Assembly (NCBI RefSeq): GCF_024298765.1
Contig: NZ_CP101210.1
Origin: Escherichia coli
Lineage (GTDB): Bacteria; Pseudomonadota; Gammaproteobacteria; Enterobacterales; Enterobacteriaceae
DNA: 64,000 nucleotides
Strand: one strand, 5' to 3'
The notes below the pieces were generated by a model. It searched no databases. It was not told the DNA's origin and saw only the letters and a program-made list of their open reading frames with translations. The position numbers and the translations under genes were made by a program. Positions 25,895 to 26,235 of this stretch are shown piece after piece (position 1 is the stretch's first letter; each line of letters starts with the position of its first letter).

Positions 25895-26235
25895 GCCTGA
25901 TGCGACGCTTAACGCGTCTTATCAGGCCCACAAAAAGCACTGTTCCCGTAGGCCGGATAAGGCGTTCATGCCGCATCCGGCAACTGCGCCATAATGCCTG
26001 ATGCGACGCTTAACGCATCTTATCAGGCCCACAAAAAGCACTGTTCCCGTAGGCCGGATAAGGCGTTCTCGCCGCATCCGGCAACTGCGCCATAATGCCT
26101 GATGCGACGCTTAACGCATCTTATCAGGCCCACAAAAAGCACTGTTCCCGTAGGCCGGATAAGGCGTTCTCGCCGCATCCGGCAACTGCGCACTAATGCC
26201 TGATGCGACGCCTGCCGCGTCTTATCAGGCCTACA
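25895..26235. repeat. BIME/REP cluster: about 3.3 tandem units of ~103 bp, each with two REP palindromes
   Basis: Repeating TGCCTGATGCGACGCTTAACGC(A/G)TCTTATCAGGCC...TAGGCCGGATAAGGCGTTC..GCCGCATCCGGCA with unit starts near 25895, 25996, 26099 and 26199. Confidence 0.85.

What the first reader, a model, noticed from the sequence alone, without database searches (positions are those of the whole stretch)
25895..26235. Periodic BIME/REP array between cbpM and torD
About 3.3 tandem ~103-bp units, each with two REP palindromes in opposite orientation. The regular periodicity could be mistaken for a CRISPR array, but the inter-palindrome segments are identical between units, so it is a BIME cluster; these are known binding sites for gyrase and IHF and a substrate for REP-associated transposases.
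Basis: partly seen in the sequence, partly recalled or inferred. Interest (0 to 1): 0.2.

Follow-up and report, generated by a model that had tools for sequence, protein, structure and literature searches.

The report
Ordinary BIME-2 REP array, cbpM–torD
The periodic repeat between cbpM and torD is a textbook E. coli BIME-2 cluster (seven alternating Z2 and Y REP hairpins in 101-bp units) whose copy number differs between strains; it is real, but an already well-described kind of element.

Summary
A tandem array lies at 25894-26237 with a period of 101 bp (not ~103), 3.4 copies, 95% matches and no indels. It fills almost all of the 355-bp gap between the convergent stop codons of cbpM and torD.

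The array is [Z2 REP (+) – 16-nt linker – Y REP (−) – 14-nt linker] ×3 plus a fourth Z2, so seven REPs. The 16-nt linker is identical in all three units. The 14-nt linker differs at two bases in one unit. That rules out CRISPR.

Z2+Y composition, short linkers, tandem copies and no IHF consensus place it in BIME-2, the gyrase-targeted class, and not in the IHF-binding BIME-1 class. Rfam calls three naRNA4 (Y–Z2 pair) matches above threshold on the + strand.

Across 5,426 complete E. coli genomes the locus is polymorphic:
- About 24% carry this haplotype, with 1.4, 2.4 or 3.4 units.
- K-12 has a 151-bp, three-REP version.
- About 35% have a 92-bp remnant.
- One strain has the REP-specific IS1397 inserted in the Z2 loop.

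The most likely role is a bidirectional 3'-end RNA hairpin block and attenuator for cbpAM and torCAD, combined with a gyrase site. This role is inferred from the literature and was not tested here.

Verdict: already known, low interest.

The parts
25582..25887 (+). cbpM CDS (chaperone modulator CbpM), last gene of cbpAM. Stop codon TGA at 25885-25887, 7 nt before the first REP.
   Evidence: Annotation of the 100%-identical record NZ_CP019273.1, mapped to the window with an offset of +23899. ORF list.
25894..26237 (.). Whole BIME-2 array: 3.4 tandem units of 101 bp, seven REPs.
   Evidence: TRF, the repeat finder, REP typing.
25895..25931 (+). Z2 REP #1, GCCTGATGCGACGCTTAACGCGTCTTATCAGGCCCAC. 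The tail is CCAC, not CTAC.
   Evidence: Hairpin of -21.3 kcal/mol, z = -6.7.
25932..25947 (.). Tail-to-tail short linker (S-type), AAAAAGCACTGTTCCC. Also at 26033-26048 and 26134-26149, identical each time.
25948..25981 (-). Y REP #1 (inverted). It reads GTAGGCCGGATAAGGCGTTCATGCCGCATCCGGC on the + strand.
   Evidence: Hairpin of about -19 to -20 kcal/mol.
25982..25995 (.). Head-to-head linker AACTGCGCCATAAT. Also at 26083-26096. The variant AACTGCGCACTAAT is at 26184-26197.
25996..26032 (+). Z2 REP #2. Its upper stem has a G>A mismatch (CGCATC) and its tail is CCAC.
26049..26082 (-). Y REP #2 (inverted), with GTAG intact on the + strand.
26097..26133 (+). Z2 REP #3, identical to #2.
26150..26183 (-). 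Y REP #3 (inverted), identical to Y #2.
26198..26234 (+). Z2 REP #4, GCCTGATGCGACGCCTGCCGCGTCTTATCAGGCCTAC. CTAC is intact. It ends 8 nt before the torD stop codon.
25951..26029 (+). Rfam naRNA4 (RF02564) match 1: inverted Y, linker, Z2. 75.2 bits against a gathering score of 59.5.
26052..26130 (+). Rfam naRNA4 match 2, 76.5 bits.
26153..26231 (+). Rfam naRNA4 match 3, 81.0 bits.
26243..26842 (-). torD CDS (TorA chaperone), last gene of torCAD, convergent with cbpM. Stop codon at 26243-26245.
   Evidence: Annotation, ORF list.

Best explanation
This is a BIME-2 type bacterial interspersed mosaic element of Escherichia coli. It is a head-to-tail array of 101-bp units, each made of one Z2 REP and one inverted Y REP joined by short constant linkers. 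It occupies the whole intergenic space between the convergent 3' ends of the cbpAM and torCAD operons.

Shown here:
- the anatomy and the REP types;
- the absence of an IHF motif;
- strong hairpin potential on both strands;
- placement 7 nt and 8 nt from the two stop codons;
- no other terminator-like structure in the gap;
- unit-number polymorphism of 1.4, 2.4 and 3.4 units among strains, with different internal arrangements of unit variants. This points to recurrent gain and loss by unequal recombination or slippage between the 101-bp repeats, and/or by TnpA_REP.

Inferred from published work on other BIMEs:
- As RNA, the hairpins sit in the 3' UTR of both converging transcripts. There they would block 3'-5' exonucleases and attenuate read-through, partly in a Rho-dependent way. 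Because they lie within 15 nt of the stop codons, they may also stall terminating ribosomes.
- As DNA, the Y REPs would form a transcription-independent strong gyrase cleavage site. This would help remove the positive supercoils that build up between convergent operons.
For: Anatomy:
- Period 101, 3.4 copies.
- Four Z2 and three Y REPs in alternating orientation, with constant 16-nt and 14-nt linkers.
- The Rfam naRNA4 model was built on the Y-linker-Z2 units of REP325 (PMC4550694). It matches three times at 75-81 bits against a threshold of 59.5.
- No IHF consensus with up to one mismatch.

Definition: BIME-2 is z2 + y REPs, an S linker, tandem copies, a copy number that varies between strains, and linkers conserved within a locus (PMC3333891).

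Genomic context:
- The array lies between cbpM and torD in a 100%-identical complete genome.
- No terminator-like site falls in the gap.
- The RNA folds with z = -8.7 and -10.7.

Allelic series:
- Intergenic lengths are 355/356, 254, 151-153 and 92 bp.
- The window-type alleles have 1.4, 2.4 or 3.4 units. L010 and L004 carry different variant orders.
- The window-type junction is present in 1283 of 5426 genomes.
- IS1397, which inserts specifically into REPs (PMC1525189), is inserted in the Z2 loop at this locus in strain EE72d.

Literature on function:
- Gyrase cleaves BIME-2, and cleaves y more than z2 (PMC6379681).
- REP325 acts as both terminator and stabiliser, and REPs between convergent genes correlate with higher expression of both genes (bioRxiv 10.64898/2026.03.23.713779).
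- REPs within 15 nt of a stop codon stall ribosomes (Liang et al. 2015, as summarised in PMC12306157).
Against: No functional data exist for this particular locus. cbpM and torD are not mentioned in the gyrase Topo-Seq supplements that are held or in the 2026 REP preprint.

REP effects are reported to depend on context, and terminal REPs do not generally lengthen mRNA half-lives (outline). About 35% of E. coli genomes manage with a 92-bp remnant, so a large array is not required.

I could not determine which mechanism changes the copy number, RecA, slippage or TnpA_REP.
Confidence: 0.93

Rival explanations
1. A CRISPR array: regularly spaced palindromic repeats separated by spacers acquired from invaders.
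For: Only the regular periodicity and the palindromic repeats.
Against: The 'spacers' are the same in every unit. The repeats are of two different types in alternating orientation. The flanking genes are cbpAM and torCAD, not cas genes. The repeats match REP consensus sequences that also occur as solo copies elsewhere in the window.
Confidence: 0.005
2. A BIME-1 / RIB-RIP type element that works by binding IHF.
For: BIMEs as a group include IHF-binding members (PMC3333891).
Against: BIME-1 is z1 + y with a long L linker that carries the IHF site, and it occurs as a single copy. This array has z2 + y, linkers of 16 and 14 nt, tandem copies, and no WATCAANNNNTTR with up to one mismatch.
Confidence: 0.02
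3. A cluster of naRNA4-like nucleoid-associated non-coding RNA genes. Their transcripts, together with HU, would bridge cruciform DNA and condense the chromosome.
For: Three Rfam naRNA4 matches above the gathering score on the + strand, which is the cbpAM sense strand. Qian et al. 2015 proposed this role for REP325 RNAs (PMC4550694).
Against: The Rfam model in effect recognises any inverted-Y/Z2 REP pair. A 2026 study that includes the original senior author found no effect of deleting REP325 or overexpressing naRNA4 on nucleoid volume. It also found no REP-REP long-range contacts and no stable ternary complex (bioRxiv 10.64898/2026.03.23.713779). No promoter-like site lies in or next to the array.
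Confidence: 0.07
4. A selfish or neutral repeat with no host function at this site. On this view the array is only the current state of REP/REPIN expansion and decay, tolerated because the site lies between two convergent 3' ends.
For: The content of the locus varies widely between strains: 92 bp, 151-153 bp, 254 bp, 355 bp and an IS1397-disrupted form. Three of the seven REPs have lost the GTAG/CTAC motif. K-12 and O157 carry degenerate first REPs.
Against: Every allele examined keeps at least one intact Z2 hairpin 8 nt from the torD stop and a hairpin 9 nt or less from the cbpM stop. Published genome-wide data associate REPs between convergent genes with higher expression. This rival concerns function only and is compatible with the BIME-2 identification.
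Confidence: 0.25
5. An assembly artefact that inflates a shorter repeat.
For: Tandem repeats are prone to mis-assembly.
Against: The same 3.4-unit allele is found in many independent complete genomes (291 records at 99% identity or more over the 651-nt query). Sequence variants of it (L004, L010) also have 3.4 units.
Confidence: 0.005

Closest known systems
BIME-2 family of E. coli (Gilson/Bachellier/Hofnung nomenclature; Espéli & Boccard 1997 gyrase targets)
   Same: Alternating Y and Z2 REPs, a short tail-to-tail linker, a short head-to-head linker, tandem units, an extragenic position at 3' ends, and a copy number that varies between strains.
   Different: Nothing fundamental. Three Z2 copies carry CCAC instead of CTAC. 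The head-to-head linker (AACTGCGCCATAAT) differs from the 'l' linker of REP325.
REP325 / naRNA4 (yjdM-yjdN BIME-2, six units; Rfam RF02564)
   Same: The same Y-linker-Z2 two-hairpin unit, scoring 75-81 bits against the model. Both are tandem arrays with constant inter-unit spacers.
   Different: This array has 3.4 units rather than 6, and a different linker sequence. It lies between convergent genes, whereas REP325 lies inside a co-directional operon. So it would act on two 3' ends rather than split an operon. No expression data exist for this locus.
The K-12 allele of the same locus (151-bp cbpM-torD intergenic region with 3 REPs)
   Same: The same position, the same Y and terminal Z2 REPs, the same head-to-head linker, and the same 8-nt distance to the torD stop (L001).
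   Different: In K-12 the first REP is a short, degenerate Y-like palindrome (33 nt) and there is one unit only. The window haplotype starts with a full Z2 and has three units. The 6-9 nt left flank also differs (GTTTGTT against TGTGTGTTT).
REPIN / RAYT (TnpA_REP) system
   Same: REP pairs in inverted orientation. The 5' GTAG and the stem bulge that TnpA_Ec requires are present in 4 of the 7 REPs.
   Different: No tnpA_REP gene is adjacent; the neighbours are cbpAM and torCAD. Three Z2 copies lack GTAG. Mobilisation or amplification by TnpA_REP was not tested.
CRISPR arrays
   Same: Regular spacing of short palindromic repeats.
   Different: Constant 'spacers', two repeat types in opposite orientation, and no cas genes.

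Membership tests
BIME-2 | Built from Y and Z2 REPs in alternating (inverted) orientation | tested here: met
   Four Z2 on the + strand and three Y on the - strand. They align to the Y and Z2 hairpins of the Rfam naRNA4 consensus. The definition is in PMC3333891.
BIME-2 | Short linker (S) between the paired REPs, not the long L linker with an IHF site | tested here: met
   The tail-to-tail linker is 16 nt and the head-to-head linker is 14 nt. There is no IHF consensus with up to one mismatch in 25880-26250.
BIME-2 | Occurs as multiple tandem copies whose sequence is conserved within a locus and whose number varies between strains | tested here: met
   3.4 copies at 95% identity. Alleles with 1.4, 2.4 and 3.4 units occur in other E. 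coli.
BIME-2 | Extragenic location | tested here: met
   The array lies entirely between the cbpM stop (25887) and the torD stop (26243).
BIME-2 | Bound and cleaved by DNA gyrase in vivo | not testable with these tools
   Known for other BIME-2 elements (PMC6379681). This locus is not named in the supplements that are held.
BIME-1 (RIB/RIP) | Z1 + Y REPs with a long L linker carrying an IHF site, single copy | tested here: not met
   Z2 rather than Z1, short linkers, no IHF motif, and tandem copies.
CRISPR | Identical direct repeats separated by unique spacers | tested here: not met
   The linkers are the same between units, and the repeats are of two types in opposite orientation.
naRNA4 (Rfam RF02564) | Score at or above the family's gathering threshold | tested here: met
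   75.2, 76.5 and 81.0 bits against 59.5, on the + strand.
naRNA4 (Rfam RF02564) | Expressed as a discrete HU-associated RNA that condenses the nucleoid | not testable with these tools
   The claim comes from REP325 (PMC4550694). It was not reproduced in bioRxiv 10.64898/2026.03.23.713779.
TnpA_REP (RAYT) substrate / REPIN | Intact 5' GTAG tetranucleotide and a bulged stem in the REP | tested here: inconclusive
   Met by Y #1-3 (GTAG on the + strand) and by Z2 #4 (GTAG on the - strand). Not met by Z2 #1-3, which have GTGG. TnpA_Ec tolerates no GTAG mutation (PMC8266576). Cleavage itself was not testable.

The most novel reading that the evidence does not exclude
The unit number at this locus (92-bp remnant, 1.4, 2.4 or 3.4 units) could act as a heritable, fast-mutating dial. 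Through hairpin dosage at both 3' ends it could set CbpM and TorD output. Alternatively it could set the strength of a gyrase-dependent supercoil barrier between the converging cbpAM and torCAD operons. In that case the polymorphism would be adaptive rather than neutral.
Probability: 0.12. Interest if true: 0.35.

Novelty: already known. Interest (0 to 1): 0.08.

Why it matters
It matters little beyond correct annotation. The result prevents a false CRISPR call. It shows that Rfam 'naRNA4' hits are generic Y–Z2 REP pairs. It also documents that the cbpM–torD BIME is a multi-allelic locus in E. coli, about 24% of genomes having the expandable Z2-first haplotype. That could serve as a typing marker, or as a natural allelic series for testing how REP dosage affects 3'-end processing and gyrase recruitment.

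Tried and rejected
1. Synthetic 8.4-unit query to find genomes with more than 3.4 units. This was uninformative, because the tool joins overlapping pieces from short alleles into about 100% coverage. The upper bound on copy number therefore rests only on the 98 evenly spaced rows, none of which exceeds 3.4 units.

2. RRS 'replication risk sequences', GC-rich 222-bp repeats that turned up in the BIME-2 literature search. These lie near dusC and lysO, not at this locus.

3. Locus-specific data. cbpM and torD are absent from the Topo-Seq supplements that are held and from the 2026 REP preprint. No supplements are held for PMC3333891. Liang et al. 2015 (PMC4427526) is not held, so its 15-nt rule is cited second-hand from PMC12306157.

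4. Intrinsic terminator or promoter inside the gap. None was found.

5. ORFs that overlap the array (25922-26077 -, 26023-26262 -, 26203-26487 +). I regard these as mechanical artefacts of reading through repeats.

6. I ran no further search on tracing the site in other genera. The identification was already settled and the cost was not justified.

Full report
**Observation.** The sequence at 25894-26237 is a clean tandem array. Tandem Repeats Finder reports period 101, 3.4 copies, 95% matches, no indels and score 618. The repeat finder reports three copies of a 147-nt segment at 101-bp spacing, 92-100% identical. The period is 101 bp rather than ~103, and the copy number is 3.4 rather than 3.3. 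With a 6-nt seed the inverted-repeat search shows the short imperfect palindromes.

**Anatomy.** A pattern scan resolves seven REPs.
- Four are 37-nt Z2-type REPs on the + strand, at 25895-25931, 25996-26032, 26097-26133 and 26198-26234.
- Three are 34-nt Y-type REPs on the - strand, at 25948-25981, 26049-26082 and 26150-26183.
- Each unit is Z2 (37) + tail-to-tail linker AAAAAGCACTGTTCCC (16) + inverted Y (34) + head-to-head linker AACTGCGCCATAAT (14), which sums to 101 bp.
- The 16-nt linker is identical in all three units. The 14-nt linker is identical twice and differs at two bases in the third unit (AACTGCGCACTAAT).
- Neither REP pattern is expected by chance: 0.00 matches in 100 shuffles, against 4 and 5 observed.
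- The two other Y matches in the window are solo REPs at 4998 and 45850. They serve as internal references for the Y consensus.
- Each REP folds into a bulged hairpin of -19 to -22 kcal/mol on either strand, with z from -4 to -6.7.
- The whole array folds far better than shuffles on both strands, with z = -8.7 and -10.7.

**Context.** The window is E. coli. The 1.3-kb region is 100% identical to strain 13P477T, where the flanking genes are annotated cbpA, cbpM (+ strand) and torD, torA (- strand).
- The two operons converge. The 355-bp gap between the cbpM stop (25885-25887) and the torD stop (26243-26245) is almost entirely REP array.
- The first REP starts 7 nt after the cbpM stop. The last REP ends 8 nt before the torD stop.
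- No promoter-like or intrinsic-terminator-like site lies in the gap.

**Classification.** Ton-Hoang et al. (PMC3333891) restate the definitions.
- BIME-1 is z1 + y with a long L linker that often carries an IHF site, and it occurs as a single copy.
- BIME-2 is z2 + y with a short S linker and s/l/r flanks. It occurs as tandem copies that are well conserved within a locus, and their number varies between strains.
- The array meets every sequence criterion of BIME-2 and fails those of BIME-1.
- No IHF consensus (WATCAANNNNTTR) occurs in 25880-26250, even with one mismatch. The consensus is rare in the window in any case: 3 sites against 2.4 expected.

Gyrase is the relevant partner for this class. 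BIME-2 elements are over-represented among gyrase cleavage sites, y is cut more often than z2, and the signal is independent of transcription (PMC6379681). CRISPR is excluded by the constant linkers, the two repeat types in opposite orientation and the absence of cas neighbours.

**Rfam.** Three matches to naRNA4 (RF02564) exceed the gathering score on the + strand, at 75.2, 76.5 and 81.0 bits against 59.5. The alignments show that the model is simply an inverted-Y hairpin, a 13-nt linker and a Z2 hairpin. That is the unit of REP325 described by Qian et al. (PMC4550694). The hits therefore confirm the Y/Z2 typing and do not reveal a gene. The proposed nucleoid-condensing role of naRNA4 was not reproduced in a 2026 preprint from overlapping authors. 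That study found REP325 to be a partly Rho-dependent attenuator and an upstream-mRNA stabiliser. It also found that REPs between convergent genes (207 of 704 pairs) go with higher expression of both genes (bioRxiv 10.64898/2026.03.23.713779).

All but one of 5,426 complete E. coli genomes match the region. Twelve representative alleles were fetched and parsed.

The window-type haplotype starts with GTTTGTT followed by a full Z2:

| Units | REPs | Intergenic length | Examples |
|---|---|---|---|
| 1.4 | 3 | 152-153 bp | L011, L012 |
| 2.4 | 5 | 254 bp | L003 |
| 3.4 | 7 | 355-356 bp | window, L002, L004, L010 |

- The 3.4-unit alleles differ in which unit variants sit where. L010 carries the CACTAAT linker between units 2 and 3 and ends with a different Z2. 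This points to independent expansions and contractions in register.
- K-12 and related strains have a 151-bp allele: a short degenerate Y-like first REP, then Y, then Z2 (L001, L008). O157 has a 153-bp version that is more degenerate (L005).
- A 92-bp allele (L006, L007) keeps a hybrid palindrome, TGCCGGATGTGATGACGCATCCGGCA, plus one Z2. It is as if 59 bp had been deleted between the first REP and the Y REP.
- In strain EE72d an IS1397 sits in the loop of that Z2, flanked by a TAAA duplication. IS1397 is known to insert specifically into REPs (PMC1525189).

Frequencies come from 98 rows taken at even steps down two rankings:

| Allele | Approximate share |
|---|---|
| 3.4 units | 9% |
| 2.4 units | 11% |
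| 151-153-bp alleles | 44% |
| 92-bp allele | 35% |
| IS-disrupted | 1% |

No sampled row had more than 3.4 units. A junction-specific query counts 1,283 of 5,426 genomes (24%) with the window-type left end. An attempt to rank genomes by copy number with a synthetic 8.4-unit query failed for technical reasons.

**Transposase substrate.** E. coli TnpA_REP needs the 5' GTAG and the stem bulge and tolerates no GTAG mutation (PMC8266576). In the window, Y #1-3 (+ strand) and Z2 #4 (- strand) keep GTAG. Z2 #1-3 read GTGG on the - strand. On sequence grounds only four of the seven REPs could be recognised. No tnpA_REP gene is nearby.

**Mechanism.**
- Shown: the structure, the placement at both 3' ends, hairpin stability on both strands, the absence of another terminator, and in-register variation in unit number.
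- Inferred for RNA: the array probably serves both converging transcripts as a 3'-exonuclease block and read-through attenuator. Because it lies within 15 nt of both stop codons, it may also dampen translation by stalling terminating ribosomes (Liang et al. 2015, as summarised in PMC12306157).
- Inferred for DNA: the Y REPs probably recruit gyrase where positive supercoils from convergent transcription meet.
- Copy number most likely changes by unequal recombination or slippage between the 101-bp repeats, with TnpA_REP-mediated strand exchange as an alternative.
- None of this was measured at this locus. A neutral or selfish reading of the polymorphism remains plausible.

**Verdict.** It is an ordinary member of a family described since the 1980s-90s, at a locus where K-12 also has a BIME. 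Novelty: already known. Interest is low.

Noticed in passing
window 22886-24662 (agp to cbpA): The window strain lacks yccE between agp and cbpA. The identical strain 13P477T has only a 102-nt annotated pseudo-fragment there, whereas K-12 and strain EE72d carry a full yccE.
   Followed up: no
L009 2065-3496 (E. coli EE72d, same cbpM-torD locus): An IS1397 (IS3 family) is inserted in the loop of the Z2 REP of the 92-bp allele, with TAAA duplicated on both sides. This is a natural example of the known REP-specific targeting.
   Followed up: partly
window 25928-25931, 26029-26032, 26130-26133: Z2 REPs #1-3 end in CCAC instead of the conserved CTAC (GTGG rather than GTAG on the - strand). The related 2.4-unit allele L003 still has CTAC in its first Z2. 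The variant was therefore copied along with the unit during expansion.
   Followed up: partly
L006/L007 689-780 (92-bp allele): About a third of E. coli genomes carry a hybrid perfect palindrome, TGCCGGATGTGATGACGCATCCGGCA. It looks like a 59-bp deletion that fused the left arm of the first REP to the right arm of the inverted Y REP.
   Followed up: partly
window 4998-5031 (+) and 45850-45883 (+): Two solo Y-type REPs lie elsewhere in the window. The first is a perfect match to the Y pattern and the second has one mismatch.
   Followed up: no
window 3719-3912 (+): A strong Rfam match to Ysr251, a Yersinia antisense sRNA family: 192.8 bits against a gathering score of 100.
   Followed up: no
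window 614-882 (+) and 56157-56241 (+): Two 85-nt tRNA genes. The first is followed by a borderline RtT RNA match, 46.3 bits against a threshold of 45.
   Followed up: no
window 36914-37336 (-): A cspA-type thermoregulator 5' UTR match, 162.8 bits. It presumably belongs to a cold-shock gene of the cspG/cspH region.
   Followed up: no
window 26243-26875 (-): The mechanical ORF for torD runs 210 aa from a GTG start. The annotated torD is 600 nt (26243-26842) and overlaps the torA stop by 4 nt.
   Followed up: no
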